IMG/VR virus record: IMGVR_UViG_2778261646_000017
Location: 1 to 16,102 of that record
DNA length: 16,102 nt
DNA from: a virus
Taxonomy: Duplodnaviria; Heunggongvirae; Uroviricota; Caudoviricetes
Direction: 5' to 3' (one strand)
Below the pieces are notes generated by a model. It was not told where the DNA came from. It saw nothing but the letters and a program-made list of their open reading frames with translations, and ran no database searches. A program made the position numbers and the translations under genes. Positions 7,796-14,318 of this stretch are shown here, one piece after another (the first letter of the stretch is position 1; the number at the start of each line of letters is the position of its first letter).

Positions 7796-8953
7796 TTAAT
7801 CGTCGTCCTGTGGCAGTTCCAGAATCTTGATCGCGTTCGAATCCACCACGCCACCGCCTAAATATTTCTGCGTGAAAATTTTGATGAAGCCCGGCTCTGT
7901 GAGGTTGTCCGGTCTGGTGCGAACACCTGTTTCGTGATCAACAATGTAGTAACCGCGTTTGAAGTCACCCAGGGCAATAACGTTATCAGGCATAAACTCC
8001 AGATATTCGACCGGAAGGCCCAGCAACGTATCAGGATCACCCGCCTGTAAACGGTCGCGCCAGATGTAATCACCGTTCGCGTTCTTCACCTTCTGAAGTT
8101 TTGCGGCCGTCGTGGAGTTAACCACCCAGACCGCGTTTTTGCGATATTTTTTATGTAATGCAAATTTCAGGTCGATCAGCGGGTCCGCAGATGTCCACGC
8201 CAGAGATTCGGAAGGTTTAATTACCTGTAACGTACCAAAATCACGCTCTTTGTCGTTCTTCTCTGCACGGGGTACGGATAAAAAGCCTTTTGCTTTTTTG
8301 TCACCGTCGCCCACAACCAGATCGCTTTCTTCGGTTTCCGTGAAGGTGTCGCCAATCTCACCCGTCAGCCATGAAAGGATGTCCACATCGGAAAAATCCA
8401 CGATTTCCTGTGTGGTGCGCGGGTACGCATAGACCGGATACAGCTTAATGCTCACCTCGTTAATCTGCGGGGTGCTGGTCTGTTCGCGTGCCTTACCCTC
8501 TTCACCGTGGTTAACGGTCGCACCGCCAGCGGAAACAAGCTGCTTAAACTCGTTGCTGCTGATTTTCTTCACGGTACAGATGCGGCGCATGGTGGATTCA
8601 TCCGCCAGCATTCGCATGATTTCGGTGTTCAGCTCGGGGATAACGGTATAACCACCATCAGCGGGAACGCCTGTACTTAATGCGCGGGTTTCACCTGTCA
8701 GGATGTAGTTTCGTAGTTCTGCGGGGTCAGTGGTCTGACTGCTTTTACCTGGCTTGCTGCGCTCTTCGTCTGCAATGGCTTCAAGGCGGGAAATGTCTTT
8801 ATCGAGGGATTCAGCTTTAGCGCGTAATTCGTCAAATTTTGCGCCCTCAGCATCGTTAAGACTGCGGTTTTCTTTTTCCGCGTTCTCCAGCATGTCGCGC
8901 ATCTGATTTTTAATGGCGGTTTTCTGCTGGCGTAATTCGATTATTCTCGGCAT
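7796..8953 (-). CDS. Major capsid protein, HK97-fold with N-terminal coiled-coil scaffold (delta) domain, 385 aa
   Basis: N-terminal 60 aa heptad-rich (LRQQKTAIKNQMRDMLENAEKENRSLNDAEGAKFDELRAKAESLDKDISRLEA); C-terminal body with capsid-like features (…GYYIVDHETGV…); followed by a terminator. Confidence 0.93.
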   Translation of the reverse strand: MPRIIELRQQKTAIKNQMRDMLENAEKENRSLNDAEGAKFDELRAKAESLDKDISRLEAIADEERSKPGKSSQTTDPAELRNYILTGETRALSTGVPADGGYTVIPELNTEIMRMLADESTMRRICTVKKISSNEFKQLVSAGGATVNHGEEGKAREQTSTPQINEVSIKLYPVYAYPRTTQEIVDFSDVDILSWLTGEIGDTFTETEESDLVVGDGDKKAKGFLSVPRAEKNDKERDFGTLQVIKPSESLAWTSADPLIDLKFALHKKYRKNAVWVVNSTTAAKLQKVKNANGDYIWRDRLQAGDPDTLLGLPVEYLEFMPDNVIALGDFKRGYYIVDHETGVRTRPDNLTEPGFIKIFTQKYLGGGVVDSNAIKILELPQDDD

Positions 8954-10475: not shown

Positions 10476-12224
10476 TTATAAAAACGCGTCGCAATCGTCT
10501 GTTGTTATTGCGTTAGTCTGCGTTACTCCCTTAACTTTCCGCGTAATATATTCATGTCCGTAAACTTTCGCGGCTGGCTTCATAGCCTTGCCAAAGTCAT
10601 TTACGTTTAGCGGTTTGCTCCTGCCTGCGTATGCCATAAACGCCAGATAGACGCGGTAAAGGCTGTTTCTGGTCGTGTACTTCACTGAATCGCCACCGCC
10701 ACCCATCATCAGGCCGCGCGCTTCCTCCAGAAAATTCAGGAACTGGCAAAACTCAATAACCGGATCCGTCTGTTGCTTTATTGCCAGTGCTTCATCACCG
10801 TCACGCTGTTCCAGTAGTAAAGCCCGTGCCTTCTCAGGGTCGGTAAAGTTCGCCAGCAAGCGGCGGATAATGACAGGGATTTCAGCCGCGATCTTTTCCG
10901 GTAGCTCCCTGTCTTTTTCTGCCTCGCTTACGATATTGTCGAAGCGGAAAATAACCCGACGACGTGACACGCCTCCGGCCCGTTCGGTGAATATCATCGG
11001 GTTGTTATTGGTCGCCAGCACCACCGCCCTGATTACCGTAGTGAAACGCTTTTCATATTTCGGGTTGATTTCCACGGGGTCGCCGCCCGTGATTTTCTTG
11101 ATGCCCGTGCCTTCGCCTGTATATTTCGGCTGGTCTGCCAGGACGATAAGACGACTCCCGACAACCTGCGCACGCCCACCAGCATCATCAAGCGATGTCA
11201 TTTCCGCGCTTACCGTGTTTTGTTTCCCCGCTAAAAGGCTGGCGATGTGGGTGAATGTACTTTTGCCGCTCCCGCCGTCTCCGGTGGCCTCAATAAACAT
11301 CTGCCAGTCGTACCGGTTCGCCATAATCATGTACAGCGCGGCACATATACGCATCATCTTGCGCTGGTCTTTTCCGGCTGCGTGATCAAGCCATTTATGA
11401 AAGTTTGGCGCGTTATCGCGGATGTTCTCCCCAGGTGCTGGTGGCGTGTACTCAATGCCGTTGTGCGTGGTGATCCAGTTCTCCGGCGTGTGCGGGGAAA
11501 ATTCCCCCGTTTTCAGGTCAAGCGCACCATTGGCGAACGGCAACAAATCGCCGGACGGCTCGCCCATTGGTTCGGCAATAACTTTTAACGCTTCCACGGC
11601 GTTATTGATTACGCGCTTGCTGAAAGTGGCCCTGTGCTCTGAATAGATCGCCACCATTTCGCGGCTAAGTTCCATTGTGCTGACCGGACACCATACCCCG
11701 CCGCGCCATACGTGAACGATTTCACTTTCCGGATGCACACAAACGCCATCAAATCGACCAGCAAGCATCTGTGCGCGCTCACTGTCTGCCATTTGTGCCA
11801 GTTGCGTATTTTTCTGCTCCGGCATGGTAAGCCCTGCGGCAATATTTTCACGCTCAGCATTCAGATAGCGCCGCCAGTTTTCACACTTCTGGACGTGCAT
11901 TCCTTCGGGGTAAAAATTTGCGTCCTGAATATCTGCCGCCGCCAGCTTCTGACCAATCTTTTTGGTCTCCACCAAATCCAGTTCTCCGGCCTGGTACAGC
12001 CTTACGCGCTTTTTCCCATCCGGAACAATTTTCAGCGCATCAAGTTCGGCAAGCTGATTTGGCCCAAGCCACACAGGCGGCACATTATCGCCGGATGCGG
12101 GGCCGTCCTGCTCCTGCCACTGTTTTGCATGTGACCACGCATCACTACCCGCGAAAATAATTACCTCTGTGTCTTTGTGTTTTATTCCGCGTGGCTGTTT
12201 TTTTACGTTCGGTGCCAGTTTCAT
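10476..12224 (-). CDS. Replication protein: primase / SF3-type helicase (P4 alpha-like, PICI Pri-Rep-like), 582 aa
   Basis: Walker A GDGGSGKST, Walker B-like RLIVLAD, N-terminal primase-like region; ATGA-coupled to the upstream small gene; iterons directly downstream. Confidence 0.88.
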   Translation of the reverse strand: MKLAPNVKKQPRGIKHKDTEVIIFAGSDAWSHAKQWQEQDGPASGDNVPPVWLGPNQLAELDALKIVPDGKKRVRLYQAGELDLVETKKIGQKLAAADIQDANFYPEGMHVQKCENWRRYLNAERENIAAGLTMPEQKNTQLAQMADSERAQMLAGRFDGVCVHPESEIVHVWRGGVWCPVSTMELSREMVAIYSEHRATFSKRVINNAVEALKVIAEPMGEPSGDLLPFANGALDLKTGEFSPHTPENWITTHNGIEYTPPAPGENIRDNAPNFHKWLDHAAGKDQRKMMRICAALYMIMANRYDWQMFIEATGDGGSGKSTFTHIASLLAGKQNTVSAEMTSLDDAGGRAQVVGSRLIVLADQPKYTGEGTGIKKITGGDPVEINPKYEKRFTTVIRAVVLATNNNPMIFTERAGGVSRRRVIFRFDNIVSEAEKDRELPEKIAAEIPVIIRRLLANFTDPEKARALLLEQRDGDEALAIKQQTDPVIEFCQFLNFLEEARGLMMGGGGDSVKYTTRNSLYRVYLAFMAYAGRSKPLNVNDFGKAMKPAAKVYGHEYITRKVKGVTQTNAITTDDCDAFL

Positions 12225-12520
12225 TTTTTACCCCTGAATACGTTAAGCATCTTTTTTATTTCCTGAATATTGGCGCGTGCTTTCTCCCTGCTGGTTGGTT
12301 TACTGCGGGGCGCTGCCTGTACCAGAGAAAAATCACGCCGAAACTGATAAACAGGCATCACGCAATCATATTCGTAGCCTTCACGACGGTAGGTGATGCG
12401 CCGTTCTGCCACGCCTTTAATCGTTACCATGCCGCCATATTTATCGCGGTAAATATCGCCGTTCATAAATTCAGGACGAGCGGGGCCGCTGGCAGTAACG
12501 CCAGAATTTTTATTTTTCAT
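12221..12520 (-). CDS. Hypothetical protein, 99 aa
   Basis: ORF MKNKNSGVTASGPARPEFMNGDIYRDKYGGMVTIKGVAERRITYRREGYEYDCVMPVYQF...; basic C-terminus; no family assigned with confidence. Confidence 0.55.
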   Translation of the reverse strand: MKNKNSGVTASGPARPEFMNGDIYRDKYGGMVTIKGVAERRITYRREGYEYDCVMPVYQFRRDFSLVQAAPRSKPTSREKARANIQEIKKMLNVFRGKK

Positions 12521-12525
12521 GTTTT

Positions 12526-12753
12526 TTATTCTCCGGTGTGCTGCGCTTTATTATTCTCGTGAATTGCCATCACTGTATTTAATTCATTAATAACAGGCGT
12601 TAATAGCGTACGCACGGCAGAAAACATCATTGAATCAGATTCATCGCCACTTTCCGGCACATCAATTAACTTAAGTAGTAATGCGTCCATTTCCTTTGCG
12701 CGGATTAATGCGTTTTCAGAATGAACAAGAACATCAAAGGGTATTTTATGCAT
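12526..12753 (-). CDS. Hypothetical protein, 75 aa (start at the internal ATG with AGGGGGGAG SD)
   Basis: MHKIPFDVLVHSENALIRAKEMDALLLKLIDVPESGDESD...; the longer start offered by the ORF track (12855) has no SD and overlaps the upstream gene. Confidence 0.5.
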   Translation of the reverse strand: MHKIPFDVLVHSENALIRAKEMDALLLKLIDVPESGDESDSMMFSAVRTLLTPVINELNTVMAIHENNKAQHTGE

Positions 12754-12916
12754 GACTCCCCCCCTGGCGAATACGGGCGACAAAAATAAGATGTGCGTGC
12801 GGCAGCTGTGCACGTGCTTCGCGCTCAGTGGCAGCGGTAACGGTGAATATTGCAATACTGTCTGTCAGGCACTGCATAAAGCGCCAGACAAAATAAGGGC
12901 GTGCGAATACAGCCAT
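12746..12916 (-). CDS. Small protein, 56 aa, paralog of the gene at 13203-13406 (possibly the Icd-like cell-division-inhibitor family; unverified)
   Basis: MAVFARPYFVWRFMQCLTDSIAIFTVTAATEREARAQLPHAHLIFVARIRQGGSHA aligns with the C-terminal 50 aa of the upstream paralog (WRF...EARxQ.P......F.ARIRQG.SHA). The reading frame stays open upstream to 13210, so the N-terminus is uncertain. Confidence 0.5.
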   Translation of the reverse strand: MAVFARPYFVWRFMQCLTDSIAIFTVTAATEREARAQLPHAHLIFVARIRQGGSHA

Positions 12917-13202
12917 GTGAAAGGCTCCCAGATGAATTTTAAGGAGTCTCGCTACTACGCTGCTAAACATGGTGGCGAGACGTAACAGGGTTAGCAGACT
13001 GGTCATCTGGAAACCAGCGAGCACAAAGGCTCCCCCGTTACGCCCCGCCATAATGCGGGTATGGGTAGGTTTACGGACACAAAAAAACCGCTTATCGGAT
13101 GTGGGCGGCTGTCCGCCAGATGTATTCAGGCTGCTAAACCCGGTCGCCATGTGGGCGACGGGGGAAGCATACAGCCCCGTGATAATTTTTTGCAAGCGGT
13201 TT

Positions 13203-13406
13203 TTACGCATGATGTGACCCCTGACGAATACGGGCGGCGAATACCATCACGCAGCCAGCCGGGGATTGCTGGCGTGCCTCCTGTTCGCTGGTGGCCTCAA
13301 TGGTAATCACGCGCGGTTGTGCCGTGCTCAGGGCGATAAAACGCCAGATGTATTTATTCAGGTTGTGCGAGTCCCGCCCTTGCGGGTGTGTGGTATGATT
13401 TCTCAT
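13203..13406 (-). CDS. Small protein, 67 aa, paralog of the gene at 12746-12916 (possibly Icd-like; unverified)
   Basis: MRNHTTHPQGRDSHNLNKYIWRFIALSTAQPRVITIEATSEQEARQQSPAGCVMVFAARIRQGSHHA; GAGG SD 6 nt upstream of ATG at 13406; it is the C-terminal part of a 352-aa track ORF whose remainder I reject. Confidence 0.55.
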   Translation of the reverse strand: MRNHTTHPQGRDSHNLNKYIWRFIALSTAQPRVITIEATSEQEARQQSPAGCVMVFAARIRQGSHHA

Positions 13407-13501
13407 AGCTACCTCGATACTTTCGCTATCGTTGGTGGTTAGAGGCTGCGAAAGGACGGCAATCCTTTTCAGCCTCGTTTGCATTGAGTGATAGTTACTC
13501 A

Positions 13502-13582
13502 ACTGGATTCCAGTATAATCATCAAGTGGAATCCACTTCAAGCATTTTGTTTTGGTCTTTTTCGTGTATACTGGATTCCAGT
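13502..13582. promoter_or_regulatory. Three palindromic operators with core TGGAWTCCA, plus -10-like hexamers, in the divergent control region
   Basis: ACTGGA-T-TCCAGT at 13502-13514, AAGTGGA-A-TCCACTT at 13524-13538, ACTGGA-T-TCCAGT at 13570-13582; TATAAT at 13514-13519. Confidence 0.6.
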
Positions 13583-13602
13583 AATCACAAAGGAAACCGG
13601 AA

Positions 13603-13782
13603 ATGGAAAGAGACCATATCAATAACAAATCACAAAAATTACAGGCTCGCGCCCCGCATGAAGTTGTTGAGGCAATGGAGCAAGTCAAAGAAACAGGCGA
13701 GAGCACTGCGCAATTTATCGTTACAGCCATGCGCGGCGAGATCAAACGCCGCCAGCGTCGCAAAGCCAAAGAATCAGAATAA
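13603..13782 (+). CDS. Small ribbon-helix-helix-like DNA-binding protein (putative regulator), 59 aa; not in the ORF track because it is under 60 aa
   Basis: MERDHINNKSQKLQARAPHEVVEAMEQVKETGESTAQFIVTAMRGEIKRRQRRKAKESE; AGGAAA SD 8 nt upstream; predicted strand-helix-helix pattern; operators directly upstream. Confidence 0.5.
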   Translation: MERDHINNKSQKLQARAPHEVVEAMEQVKETGESTAQFIVTAMRGEIKRRQRRKAKESE

Positions 13783-13839
13783 TCACTATCAGCGCCGTGG
13801 CGTGAGGTACTCCGGCGCATTGCTTTACAGGTCAGTACT

Positions 13840-14049
13840 ATGAGCAAAAAACACCGATCAGCAGATGAGATTTTTGCAGAACAACGAAGATTGCTTTTGC
13901 AAAGTATCATTTCACGCCAGCAAGAGAAGGCGCGAGCTAAACAAATGCCACCAAATACAGAACCAGCGCCTACAAGATTTGCGCTTGATGACTTTCTCGA
14001 TAAACACCCCAGGGTAATGAAAGCAAACAAAAACCGCCCACCAGGCTGA
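13840..14049 (+). CDS. Hypothetical protein, 69 aa
   Basis: MSKKHRSADEIFAEQRRLLLQSIISRQQEKARAKQ...; weak AGGT SD; followed by a + strand terminator. No family recognised. Confidence 0.4.
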   Translation: MSKKHRSADEIFAEQRRLLLQSIISRQQEKARAKQMPPNTEPAPTRFALDDFLDKHPRVMKANKNRPPG

Positions 14050-14140
14050 TCACATTGCCCACCAGCCTGATAGCGGCTATCATCCCCGTGCTTATGTTTG
14101 AGATCACACACACAAACGGCGCAGCGGGTTATCTGTTCAG

Positions 14141-14173
14141 AAAGGCGGCTCCATTTCAGGGCCGCTTTTTTTA
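14141..14173 (+). terminator. Rho-independent terminator for the two small + strand genes
   Basis: AAAGGCGGC-(11-nt loop)-GCCGC followed by TTTTTTT on the + strand. Confidence 0.55.
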
Positions 14174-14318
14174 TTCCTGAAAAACCCCAATTTTGTTGTT
14201 TTTCAGTTTCACCAGGGCGAACGAATCCCCGCCCACGTTCTGGCGTATATTCAATCTTCATGGTTATAGCTCTGTGTTCAGATGATTGATGTGTGGCGGC
14301 TGCGTGCCGCCAGCGTGA

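What the first reader, a model, noticed from the sequence alone, without database searches (positions are those of the whole stretch)
12746..13406. Tandem paralogous small proteins separated by a 286-bp structured spacer with an open frame
Two small ORFs (67 aa and 56 aa) share a conserved C-terminal half (WRF...EARxQ.P...F.ARIRQG.SHA). In both, the C-terminal codons (CAG GGG ...) form the SD for the next gene, overlapping its ATG. The interval between them (12917-13202) stays open in frame with the downstream paralog, giving a possible 154-aa fusion, yet it contains T-runs and several hairpins and near-palindromes (GTCGCC-cacat-GGCGAC, GGCGG-acag-CCGCC, gctgctaaac...ggttagcag). It may therefore be a structured RNA or leader rather than coding sequence. 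P4-type satellites use a processed small RNA in the equivalent early region for immunity, so an RNA regulator here is worth testing. The paralogs may be Icd-like cell-division inhibitors, but I cannot verify that.
Basis: partly seen in the sequence, partly recalled or inferred. Interest (0 to 1): 0.5.

Follow-up and report, generated by a model that had tools for sequence, protein, structure and literature searches.

The report
P4-type antisense-RNA immunity switch
The "spacer" between the two small genes encodes a well-known kind of phage antisense RNA (C4/CI) together with its target sites, sitting in front of an Icd/Kil-like gene and the replication genes of an E. coli phage satellite, so this is an ordinary, mis-annotated member of the P4/P1 immunity system and not a new one.

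Summary
All genes are on the minus strand. Both small ORFs (67 aa and 56 aa) match the Icd-like domain NF033153. The 286-bp interval holds a full-length Rfam C4 antisense RNA (13055..12968, 72.7 bits). Upstream lie a promoter that aligns with P1 P1c4/P51b, the a1/b1 (seqA/IsrK-like) targets and a terminator-like hairpin with a U7 run. Downstream lie the a2/b2 targets, and b2 runs into the Shine-Dalgarno of the 56-aa gene. The interval is 76% identical to phage P1 immI. In 52 of 64 related loci, exact complements of both variable C4 segments sit at all four target positions. P4 has the same layout: seqA, CI, and Kil, which I find to be Icd-like, nested in-frame inside the long ORF eta. The 154-aa ORF is therefore best read as an eta analogue whose translation, not its product, matters; its amino-acid sequence is not conserved. 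The module precedes the primase operon of a capsid-forming PICI. It is a new member of a known kind. RefSeq annotates no RNA here. C4/isrK hits in Gram-negative PICIs have already been reported.

The parts
13203..13406 (-). icd-1, a 67-aa Icd/Kil-like small protein and the upstream paralogue. It has no C4 module of its own in this island.
   Evidence: NF033153 69.8 bits. RefSeq WP_015674632.1 'Icd-like'. No C4-like hit upstream of it. In the relatives L207, L240, L243 and L237 the equivalent gene has its own isrK+C4.
13203..13210 (-). Coupling junction ATGCGTAA: the ATG of the 154-aa ORF (13210-13208) overlaps the icd-1 stop (13205-13203), with CAGGGG just upstream.
   Evidence: Sequence. The same junction is kept in 10 IMG/VR relatives and 5 E. 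coli genomes. In P4 the eta ATG overlaps the stop of the upstream gene in the same way.
13166..13195 (-). Candidate constitutive promoter inside the long ORF (P4 PLE / P1 P1c4=P51b analogue): TTGCAA (13195..13190), 18 nt, TATGCT (13171..13166).
   Evidence: Aligns hexamer for hexamer with the annotated P1 promoter P1c4 (TTGACC-17-TATAGT). It scores 8/12 and so falls below the consensus scan's threshold. Relatives have TTGACT or TATGAT at the same positions. Inferred, not shown.
13081..13172 (-). a1/b1 element (P4 seqA / Gifsy-1 IsrK analogue). It comprises hairpin 1 (13159..13143), a1 UUAGCAG (13137..13131), b1 CAUCUGG (13122..13116), the GGCGG/CCGCC hairpin (13117..13104), and a terminator-like hairpin AGCCGC...GCGGUU with U7 (13110..13081).
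   Evidence: Rfam c4-a1b1 45.5 bits (gathering 46.7) and isrK 36.8 bits (gathering 50). Exact 7-mers complementary to the RNA. Hairpin 1 covaries in the L139 group. Positions match P1 a1/b1.
12968..13055 (-). C4/CI-type antisense RNA. The predicted mature RNA is 13049..12971 (79 nt). The b' segment CCAGAUG (13010..13004) lies in the loop of hairpin 2. The a' segment CUGCUAA (12997..12991) is single-stranded.
   Evidence: RF01695 72.7 bits, E 7.6e-13, full model. MFE -45.9 kcal/mol with the family fold. 7 of 23 pairs show compensatory changes across 13 homologues. Mature ends are inferred from the annotated P1 misc_RNA.
12925..12966 (-). a2/b2 target region (P4 seqC analogue): a2 UUAGCAG (12966..12960), b2 CAUCUGG (12934..12928), overlapping the Shine-Dalgarno GGGAG (12929..12925), 8 nt before ATG 12916.
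   Evidence: The b' loop pairs with b2+SD over 13 bp, -22.0 kcal/mol (0 of 500 shuffles reach it). Same position as P1 a2/b2, annotated 'repression of icd ant translation'.
12746..12916 (-). icd-2, a 56-aa Icd/Kil-like protein (P4 kil / P1 icd analogue), whose start is under C4 control.
   Evidence: NF033153 53.7 bits. SD+ATG conserved in all relatives. Aligns with the P1 icd start and with the P1 Icd 12-51 core.
12746..13210 (-). 154-aa ORF (P4 eta analogue) spanning the promoter, a1b1, C4 and a2b2, in frame with icd-2. RefSeq WP_001230911.1 'Icd-like protein'.
   Evidence: Open in all 14 satellite-type IMG/VR loci that kept a long open frame (that property was part of how they were selected) and in 5/5 unfiltered divergent E. 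coli loci. The amino-acid sequence is not conserved: about 37 codons are read in another frame in L140, L162, L222 and L183. No protein family matches the first 98 aa. P4 eta/kil precedent.
10476..12753 (-). Downstream operon presumed to be controlled by the switch: 75-aa ORF (12753..12526, start overlaps the icd-2 stop), DUF4222 (12520..12221) and a primase-family protein (12224..10476).
   Evidence: The same order (icd-like, small ORFs, DUF4222, primase/RepA/toprim) is found in relatives.
13203..14261 (-). 352-aa ORF running from just after alpA into icd-1 (a candidate second eta-like 'translated leader'). It is antisense to the YlcI/YnfO gene (13603-13782 +) and a 69-aa ORF (13840-14049 +).
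   Evidence: 0 stops in this frame over 13206..14318, against 26 and 25 in the other two minus-strand frames. The alpA-to-icd-1 interval is likewise free of stops in L239, L241 and L242, which share little sequence with the window. No clear SD at ATG 14261. Interpretation inferred.
13502..13583 (.). Divergent control region between icd-1 and the YlcI/YnfO gene. It holds a candidate upstream promoter for icd-1 (13541..13512, TTGAAG-18-TATACT) and palindromic operator-like repeats ACTGGATTCCAGTA (13502-13515, 13570-13583) and TGGAATCCA (13527-13538).
   Evidence: Function not tested.

Best explanation
The locus is the immunity and early-control region of an E. coli capsid-forming PICI. It is homologous to the P4 seqA-cI-seqC-kil/eta region and to the P1/P7 c4-icd region.

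Shown here by sequence:
- A full-length C4/CI-type RNA lies between two Icd/Kil-like genes.
- Its two variable segments, a' CUGCUAA and b' CCAGAUG, have exact complements upstream (a1, b1) and downstream (a2, b2).
- b2 runs into the Shine-Dalgarno of the 56-aa gene.

Inferred from the P1, P4 and Gifsy-1 systems:
- A weak constitutive promoter inside the long ORF (around 13195..13166) makes a leader. Part of it stops at the hairpin-U7 after b1, giving an IsrK/seqA-like short RNA. Part reads through.
- The C4 RNA (about 79 nt, 13049..12971) is cut out of the read-through transcript by RNase P.
- C4 pairs with a2/b2 and blocks translation of icd-2. Loss of translation and of translational coupling then exposes the transcript to premature termination, which is Rho-dependent in P1 and P4. 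The downstream 75-aa gene, DUF4222 and the primase stay off while the island is quiescent.
- C4 pairing with a1/b1 gives autoregulation or termination, as with P4 seqA.
- Transcripts from the upstream promoter or promoters (before icd-1, possibly from alpA) are translated. Ribosomes ending icd-1 restart at the overlapping ATG 13210 and read the 154-aa frame through the whole RNA module. As with P4 eta, this makes those transcripts insensitive to the antisense RNA and lets the replication genes be expressed on induction.

The 56-aa and 67-aa proteins probably act like P1 Icd / P4 Kil, that is as division inhibitors or toxic proteins. This is untested.

Confidence is about 0.9 for the identity of the module (C4-type RNA, its targets, Icd-like genes) and about 0.5 for the eta-like role of the 154-aa frame. 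The single figure given is a blend of the two.
For: RNA and targets:
- Rfam C4 72.7 bits, full length; c4-a1b1 45.5 and isrK 36.8 bits at the expected upstream position.
- 76% column identity with P1 immI, whose promoter, a1, b1, C4, a2, b2 and icd are annotated.
- Exact a and b complements at the four expected places; the b'-b2/SD duplex is -22 kcal/mol, reached by 0 of 500 shuffles.
- In 64 distinct related loci there are 2 real a' types (3 further 'types' are single loci with no matching targets) and about 18 real b' types. 52 have exact 7-mer complements at all four sites. Foreign b 7-mers occur in 4 of 1280 tests.
- The C4 fold shows compensatory pairs.

Proteins and context:
- Icd-like domain in both proteins. 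The P1 Icd active core, residues 12-51, lies inside the aligned region.
- P4: seqA/isrK, CI/C4, Kil matching NF033153 at 73.9 bits, and a long in-frame ORF whose ATG overlaps the stop of vis/alpA. The P4 mechanism is summarised in PMC10111431.
- Gifsy-1: isrK, C4, and the experimentally translated orf45, which starts at the same AUG and in the same frame.
- The long frame is open in every relative of this clade examined.
- Operon context with primase/RepA.
Against: - No expression data of any kind. The promoter scores 8/12 and was not called by the consensus scan.
- c4-a1b1 and isrK fall below their gathering scores in this window.
- The terminator-like stem is weak, and folding does not clearly favour a switch (-27.3 vs -26.0 kcal/mol).
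- The a'-a2 duplex taken alone is not better than shuffles.
- The open 154-aa frame could be inherited chance. The spacers are very similar to one another, and P1-like phages and three other lineages (L208/L235, L215, L145/L216) have stops there.
- Four relatives keep the open frame without an upstream icd gene or an evident SD.
- The role of icd-1, which has no RNA control here, is unexplained.
Confidence: 0.8

Rival explanations
1. Only the 56-aa gene is translated. The 154-aa frame is open by descent and chance, and the RefSeq 154-aa CDS is an annotation artefact laid over a purely non-coding RNA leader, as in P1.
For: - P1-like phages have a stop 33-42 nt upstream of icd, and the system still works there.
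- Three other lineages are also closed.
- Spacers of the clade are nearly identical outside the a/b sites, so openness is largely inherited.
- The shuffle probability of 0.02 is not extreme once several lineages have been looked at.
- The first 98 aa match no family.
Against: - The frame stays open through at least 10 different b types at three sites each, three different 5' variants, and two sets of compensating +1/-1 indels.
- An ATG overlaps the stop of the upstream gene exactly as in P4 eta.
- The homologous frames are translated in P4 and Gifsy-1.
Confidence: 0.3
2. The 154-aa ORF encodes a genuine two-domain protein whose N-terminal 98 residues have a function as protein.
For: RefSeq annotates it in every sampled E. 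coli genome that carries the spacer. The frame is open in all clade members.
Against: - In L140, L162, L222 and L183 about 37 codons are read in a different frame and give an unrelated peptide.
- Variation is concentrated at the RNA's a/b sites and changes in step at three places.
- Nucleotide conservation extends to P1, with indels that are not multiples of three.
- No Pfam, NCBIfam or PHROG match.
Confidence: 0.04
3. The main regulator is the short a1b1 RNA acting in trans as an activator, as with Gifsy-1 IsrK. It would pair with the C4 part of the read-through transcript and open it for translation. A processed C4 repressor would not be the key player.
For: - Same architecture as isrK-orf45-anrP.
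- The hairpin with U7 is placed as the IsrK terminator is.
- The AUG at 13051, in the conserved UUAUGG, is in frame with icd-2, like orf45.
- IsrK activates translation in trans in Salmonella.
Against: - The isrK model scores only 36.8 bits here (gathering 50).
- icd-2 has its own conserved SD overlapped by b2, as in P1.
- There is no SD before AUG 13051.
- The two modes are not mutually exclusive.
Confidence: 0.2
4. The module is an inactive relic of recombination between islands.
For: The island is a mosaic. icd-1 has lost the isrK+C4 module that its homologues carry. A truncated 'Icd-like' pseudogene is annotated at 14261..14039.
Against: - The RNA match is full length.
- All four target sites are exact.
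- SD and ATG are intact.
- The spacer is present in 121 of 5426 complete E. coli genomes at 87-100% identity.
Confidence: 0.04

Closest known systems
Satellite phage P4 immunity region (PLE - seqA - cI RNA - seqC - kil nested in eta - ... - alpha primase)
   Same: - Same Rfam families in the same order: isrK/seqA, then C4/CI.
- The short gene after the RNA is Icd-like in both. P4 Kil, 65 aa, scores 73.9 bits against NF033153.
- A long ORF spans the RNA in frame with the short gene, and its ATG overlaps the stop of the upstream gene.
- A primase gene lies downstream.
- Both are integrated satellites with a P4-type integrase and an AlpA/Vis homologue.
   Different: - The upstream gene coupled to the long ORF is a second Icd-like gene, not the alpA homologue.
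- No epsilon, orf151, sid, delta or psu. The element instead carries its own capsid, portal and terminase genes (a cf-PICI).
- The RNA sequence is closer to P1/P7 (75-79% identity by blastn) than to P4.
- The a/b specificity differs.
Phage P1/P7 immI operon (P1c4 promoter - a1 b1 - C4 RNA - a2 b2 - icd - ant)
   Same: - 76% nucleotide column identity over the promoter, a1, b1, hairpin-U run, C4, a2 and b2/SD.
- The a type is that of P7-like phages.
- An Icd-like gene with an overlapping downstream start.
   Different: - No antirepressor (ant) downstream; replication genes instead.
- The Icd-like proteins lack the C-terminal 20 residues of P1 Icd.
- The frame through the RNA is open here and closed in P1.
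- The b specificity CCAGAUG was found only in satellites.
- No C1 operator was looked for.
Salmonella Gifsy-1 isrK - orf45 (STnc1160) - anrP locus
   Same: - Gifsy-1 has the same isrK/a1b1 and C4 matches and a2/b2 at an SD.
- orf45 starts at the AUG of the conserved UUAUGG at the 5' end of C4 and is 45 codons long. The window has exactly 45 codons in the same frame from AUG 13051 to the icd-2 ATG.
- In that locus nucleotides are conserved but the peptide is not.
   Different: In Gifsy-1 the frame stops at the start of an antirepressor gene and there is no Icd-like gene. Activation by the short RNA has been shown there and is only a possibility here.

Membership tests
Rfam RF01695 C4 antisense RNA (includes P1/P7 C4 and P4 CI) | Covariance-model score at or above the curated gathering score, over the full model | tested here: met
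   72.7 bits against 45, model positions 1-87 of 87.
Rfam RF01695 C4 antisense RNA (includes P1/P7 C4 and P4 CI) | Long closing stem enclosing two hairpins, supported by compensatory changes | tested here: met
   The MFE structure has this fold. 7 of 23 pairs show double changes in 13 homologues.
Rfam RF01695 C4 antisense RNA (includes P1/P7 C4 and P4 CI) | Two exposed segments (a', b') complementary to sites upstream and downstream in the same transcript | tested here: met
   Exact 7-mers at 13137..13131, 13122..13116, 12966..12960 and 12934..12928. 52 of 64 relatives have all four.
Rfam RF01695 C4 antisense RNA (includes P1/P7 C4 and P4 CI) | Stable RNA of about 77 nt released from a longer transcript by RNase P | not testable with these tools
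   The ends 13049 and 12971 are inferred from the P1 annotation only.
Rfam RF03163 c4-a1b1 / RF01394 isrK (P4 seqA) | Score at or above the gathering score | tested here: not met
   c4-a1b1 45.5 against 46.7; isrK 36.8 against 50. The position, both hairpins and the a1/b1 sites agree with the family, and relatives pass: L207, L237, L139, P4 and Gifsy-1.
NCBIfam NF033153 host cell division inhibitor Icd-like | Domain score above the curated cut-off | tested here: met
   69.8 bits (67 aa) and 53.7 bits (56 aa), cut-off 25.
NCBIfam NF033153 host cell division inhibitor Icd-like | Inhibits cell division (P1 Icd binds FtsZ; active core residues 12-51) | not tested
   The core region aligns.
P4-type immunity region (kil nested in eta) | Short gene after the RNA nested in frame within a long ORF that spans seqA, CI and seqC | tested here: met
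   56-aa gene inside the 154-aa ORF. P4 comparison.
P4-type immunity region (kil nested in eta) | [quoted passage not shown] | tested here: inconclusive
   An ATG/stop overlap is present, but with icd-1 and not alpA. A further open frame links alpA to icd-1.
P4-type immunity region (kil nested in eta) | Constitutive promoter internal to the long ORF; a Rho-dependent terminator downstream; translation of the long ORF prevents termination | not testable with these tools
   The promoter is inferred only by alignment to P1. Terminator and translation effects need experiments.
P1/P7 immI operon | C4-controlled icd is followed by the antirepressor gene ant | tested here: not met
   Downstream are a 75-aa ORF, DUF4222 and primase.
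Capsid-forming PICI (cf-PICI) | Integrase, alpA and primase plus own capsid, protease, portal, head-tail connector, TerS and TerL; no tail or lysis genes | tested here: met
   RefSeq annotation of the identical region in NZ_CP032204, between roxA and phoQ.

The most novel reading that the evidence does not exclude
The island keeps a continuous chain of translated frames from alpA to the primase gene. The chain is the 352-aa ORF (14261..13203, antisense to two annotated genes), then the 154-aa ORF across the RNA module, then the overlapping starts downstream. The intervening 'proteins' would be selected only for being translatable, so that ribosomes shield induced transcripts from the antisense RNA and from Rho. 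That would generalise the P4 eta principle to more than 1.4 kb, and to sequence that also codes on the other strand.
Probability: 0.3. Interest if true: 0.55.

Novelty: new member of a known kind. Interest (0 to 1): 0.3.

Why it matters
- Annotation. In 121 of 5426 complete E. coli genomes this RNA module lies under a CDS called 'Icd-like protein'. In related islands it lies under 'ash family protein' pseudogenes. PHROGs label the Icd/Kil family 'transcriptional repressor', probably a legacy of the old P4 'cI' CDS. No RNA is annotated. Anyone studying how PICIs and cf-PICIs stay quiescent or are induced should know that many carry a P4/P1-type antisense-RNA switch in front of their replication genes.
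- Specificity. The survey shows that the two specificity determinants are shuffled freely among P1-like phages and satellites (2 a types and about 18 b types). This bears on cross-immunity between co-resident elements.
- P4 Kil. P4 Kil belongs to the Icd-like family. That links Kil's killing phenotype to the FtsZ inhibition recently shown for P1 Icd.
- None of this is a new kind of system.

Tried and rejected
- The genome-contig scan with the 16-mer TTTGTGTCCGTAAACC returned 115 loci, almost all chance matches.
- Weak Rfam hits were rejected as noise: the R1162-like antisense RNA (13477..13405, 24.7 bits against 55) and STnc50 (14226..14133, 22.6 against 55).
- I looked for a second C4 upstream of icd-1 and found none.
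- I tested whether C4 pairing at b1 flips an antiterminator (GGCGG/CCGCC) into the terminator hairpin. Blocking b1 does change the predicted fold, but the energies are too close to claim a switch (-27.3 vs -26.0 kcal/mol).
- The consensus promoter scan did not call the P1c4-like promoter.
- Pfam, NCBIfam and PHROGs gave nothing for the first 98 aa of the 154-aa ORF.
- The original P4 eta/kil paper (PMC94026) is not held, so I relied on its summary in PMC10111431 and on the P4 sequence.
- My first set of 14 'satellite-type' loci was filtered on having a long open frame. I therefore checked the excluded lineages (closed frames) and 5 unfiltered divergent E. coli loci (all open) before drawing any conclusion on selection.
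Full report
**What is in the sequence**

The genes of the finding lie on the minus strand. ORF 13406..13203 encodes 67 aa and ORF 12916..12746 encodes 56 aa. A 154-aa ORF, 13210..12746, contains the second one in frame. The two small proteins are 43% identical over 49 residues, and both match NCBIfam NF033153 'host cell division inhibitor Icd-like' (69.8 and 53.7 bits, cut-off 25). Both genes end ...CAG GGG ... CAT GCN TAA, so an ATG overlaps each stop codon (13210 and 12753).

**Where the window comes from**

The region is 100% identical to E. coli AR_0013 (NZ_CP032204). There it lies in an island inserted between roxA and phoQ. The island carries integrase, an AlpA-type regulator, the two Icd-like genes, DUF4222, a primase-family gene, SSB, PerC, major capsid, prohead protease, portal, head-closure and connector proteins, HNH, TerS and TerL, and has no tail or lysis genes. 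That is the gene set of a capsid-forming PICI. RefSeq annotates the 154-aa ORF as an 'Icd-like protein' and annotates no RNA.

**The spacer is an RNA module**

A scan of the window against Rfam gives one hit above threshold. It is C4 antisense RNA (RF01695) at 13055..12968 on the minus strand, at 72.7 bits (gathering 45), E 7.6e-13, covering the full model.

A more permissive scan adds two hits just upstream. These are c4-a1b1, the known upstream targets of C4 (13172..13123, 45.5 bits, gathering 46.7), and isrK (13159..13081, 36.8 bits, gathering 50). The isrK match ends in a hairpin followed by seven U.

The whole interval aligns with the immI region of phage P1 at 76% column identity. In P1 the GenBank record marks the promoter P1c4 (P51b), the sites a1 and b1, the 77-nt C4 RNA, the sites a2 and b2 ('repression of icd ant translation') and icd. 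Transferring these features gives the following map:

- -35 TTGCAA 13195..13190 and -10 TATGCT 13171..13166
- hairpin 1, 13159..13143
- a1 UUAGCAG 13137..13131 and b1 CAUCUGG 13122..13116
- hairpin plus U7, 13110..13081
- mature C4, about 13049..12971, with b' CCAGAUG in the loop of its second hairpin (13010..13004) and a' CUGCUAA in the single-stranded stretch (12997..12991)
- a2 UUAGCAG 12966..12960 and b2 CAUCUGG 12934..12928, the latter running into the Shine-Dalgarno GGGAG (12929..12925), 8 nt before ATG 12916

The b' loop can pair with b2 plus the SD over 13 bp at -22.0 kcal/mol. None of 500 shuffled loops reaches that value.

**Comparative evidence**

A pattern scan of IMG/VR for the conserved part of the RNA returned 119 loci. 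After removing duplicates, 64 have full flanks. They carry 2 real a' types and about 18 real b' types in 28 combinations. In 52 of the 64, exact 7-nt complements of both a' and b' are present at all four expected positions. A b sequence of a foreign type is found in a flank in only 4 of 1280 tests.

So the RNA and both target pairs change together, which is what a base-pairing regulator predicts. The window's a type is that of P7-like phages. Its b type occurs only in satellite-type loci (L228, L133, L161). The fold of the RNA is supported by compensatory changes in 7 of 23 pairs among 13 diverse homologues.

**Protein domain or RNA?**

Among 14 satellite-type IMG/VR loci and 5 divergent E. 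coli loci, the spacer is almost invariant at the nucleotide level. The exceptions are the a and b sites, which change in step, and one 5' segment. L140, L162, L222 and L183 have one base fewer at b1 and one more in the b' loop. About 37 codons are therefore read in another frame and give an unrelated peptide. Against P1 the indels are not multiples of three. The first 98 residues match nothing in Pfam, NCBIfam or PHROGs. The N-terminal part is not a conserved protein domain.

**Why the frame is nevertheless open**

Within this clade the frame is open in all 14 IMG/VR loci and in all 5 unfiltered E. coli loci. This holds despite many b types, three 5' variants and compensating single-base indels. 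The other two frames carry 1-9 stops each. The first 14 loci had been selected partly on this property. P1-like phages and three other lineages are closed, so chance plus inheritance cannot be excluded.

P4 offers a specific explanation:

- P4 has isrK/seqA (8692..8615, 60.8 bits) and C4/CI (8507..8420, 74.9 bits).
- The old 'cI' CDS of the P4 record matches the Icd-like domain at its C-terminus (73.9 bits).
- The 65-aa gene starting at 8365 is therefore Icd-like and has the length of P4 kil.
- A 214-aa frame, 8812..8168, is open across promoter, seqA, CI and kil, and its ATGs overlap the stop of the alpA homologue vis.

PMC10111431 summarises the experimental work of Forti et al. 1999 as follows. 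A constitutive promoter inside eta gives a transcript that is quickly terminated through the CI and seqA interactions and yields CI. Kil is a truncated Eta translated on read-through. Full-length Eta is translated only from an upstream late promoter, coupled to the alpA homologue, and its translation prevents termination.

The window has the same nested pair, 56 aa inside 154 aa, and the same overlapping start. Here, however, the upstream gene is a second Icd-like gene.

In Gifsy-1 the translated orf45 starts at the AUG of the conserved UUAUGG at the 5' end of C4 and has 45 codons. The window has exactly 45 codons in that frame between AUG 13051 and the icd-2 ATG. By the P1 annotation the RNase P cut falls inside that AUG. 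Processing and translation of one molecule should therefore exclude each other; this is an inference.

**Mechanism proposed**

Shown by sequence:
- the RNA
- its four exact targets
- the overlap of b2 with the SD of icd-2
- the overlapping starts down to the primase gene (75-aa ORF 12753..12526, DUF4222 12520..12221, primase 12224..10476)

Inferred from P1, P4 and Gifsy-1:
- The internal promoter makes a leader. Part of it ends at the hairpin-U7 as a short seqA/IsrK-like RNA, and part reads through and is processed to C4.
- C4 blocks icd-2 translation at a2/b2. The untranslated message is then terminated, which keeps replication genes silent in the resident island.
- Pairing at a1/b1 gives feedback.
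- Transcripts from upstream are translated through the module via the 154-aa frame and escape control when the island is induced.

A candidate upstream promoter (13541..13512) sits among palindromic repeats in the region shared with the divergent YlcI/YnfO gene.

The Icd-like proteins contain the region equivalent to residues 12-51 of P1 Icd, which is sufficient for division inhibition through FtsZ (PMC11897509; alignment). Their activity is untested.

**Origin of the tandem paralogues**

In L207, L240, L243 and L237 the icd-1-type gene is preceded by its own isrK plus C4, of a different a/b type. The ancestral state is thus two complete, heteroimmune modules in tandem. In this window, and in L239, L241 and L242, the first module has been replaced by a segment carrying oppositely oriented genes. 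In other islands there is a single icd and no C4 at all (L238). The module always lies just upstream of the replication genes, which may be primase, RepA helicase or a toprim protein.

**An extension seen on the way**

The frame of icd-1 has no stop from the alpA stop codon (14321-14319) to 13203. That is 371 codons. The other two minus-strand frames have 26 and 25 stops, even though this frame runs antisense through two annotated genes. The alpA-to-icd-1 intervals of L239, L241 and L242 are also free of stops (0 against 9-23), and they share little sequence with the window. This looks like a second eta-like translated leader. I found no clear ribosome-binding site at its first ATG, 14261, and did not test it further.

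**Comparison with what is known, and novelty**

The locus works like, and is homologous to, the P4 immunity region. At the nucleotide level it is closer to P1/P7 immI. It is not an immI operon in the strict sense, because no antirepressor gene follows. The presence of C4 and isrK matches in Gram-negative PICIs, and their reading as immunity RNAs inside eta-like genes, has been published (PMC10111431). A search for papers joining PICIs and C4 antisense RNA found nothing further, and a recent satellite survey treats Icd and 'ash' simply as proteins.

The finding is therefore a new member of a known kind. Its useful by-products are a corrected annotation for 121 of 5426 complete E. coli genomes, the assignment of P4 Kil to the Icd-like family, and a catalogue of specificity types.

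**Verdict**

Interest is low to moderate.

Noticed in passing
window 13203-14318 (minus strand): The icd-1 frame has 0 stop codons over 371 codons, from the alpA stop to the icd-1 stop. The other two minus-strand frames have 26 and 25. The frame runs antisense through the YlcI/YnfO gene (13603-13782 +) and a 69-aa ORF (13840-14049 +). The equivalent intervals in L239, L241 and L242 are also stop-free although largely non-homologous. RefSeq calls 14261..14039 an 'Icd-like' pseudogene.
   Followed up: partly
window 13502-13515, 13570-13583, 13527-13538: Two exact copies of the palindromic ACTGGATTCCAGTA, plus a related TGGAATCCA, lie in the divergent region between icd-1 and the YlcI/YnfO gene, around a promoter-like site (13541..13512). 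They look like operators for an unidentified repressor.
   Followed up: no
window 13354..13342 and 13126..13114 (minus strand): The 13-mer AATACATCTGGCG occurs both at the b1 target and inside icd-1, where it covers the conserved Y-I-W-R codons. The b' loop of C4 could therefore also pair within the icd-1 coding sequence. There is no a-type site nearby.
   Followed up: no
L207 2801-3467; L240 about 1000-1290; L243 about 960-1290: Related islands carry two complete isrK/a1b1 + C4 + icd modules in tandem with different a/b specificities. For example, L207 has a' GUGGUAA in the first module and a' CUGUCAA in the second.
   Followed up: partly
L245 (phage P4) 8168-8584 and 8168-8365: The legacy P4 'cI gene product, transcriptional repressor' CDS overlies the CI RNA, and its C-terminus is an Icd-like domain (73.9 bits). 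P4 Kil (65 aa) is thus an Icd-family protein. PHROGs 6196 and 1743, which match the window's Icd-like proteins, are labelled 'transcriptional repressor', probably by propagation of that label.
   Followed up: partly
L237 2226-2855; L240 930-1256: RefSeq 'ash family protein' pseudogenes in related E. coli islands lie directly over isrK + C4 RNA matches (L237: isrK 2646-2722, C4 2744-2831). At least some 'ash family' calls are therefore translations of this RNA module.
   Followed up: partly
IMG/VR loci L118-L236: Among P1-like phages and satellites the two specificity segments of C4 occur in 28 combinations (2 real a types, about 18 real b types). The same b type is found with either a type, which suggests recombination between the determinants.
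   Followed up: partly
window 13110..13075 (minus strand); P1 L002 1571-1620: CGGACA upstream of the terminator-like hairpin can pair with UGUCCG just after the U-run. That would enclose the hairpin and turn the U7 into an internal bulge. Both halves are identical in P1 and the window. No role is known to me.
   Followed up: no
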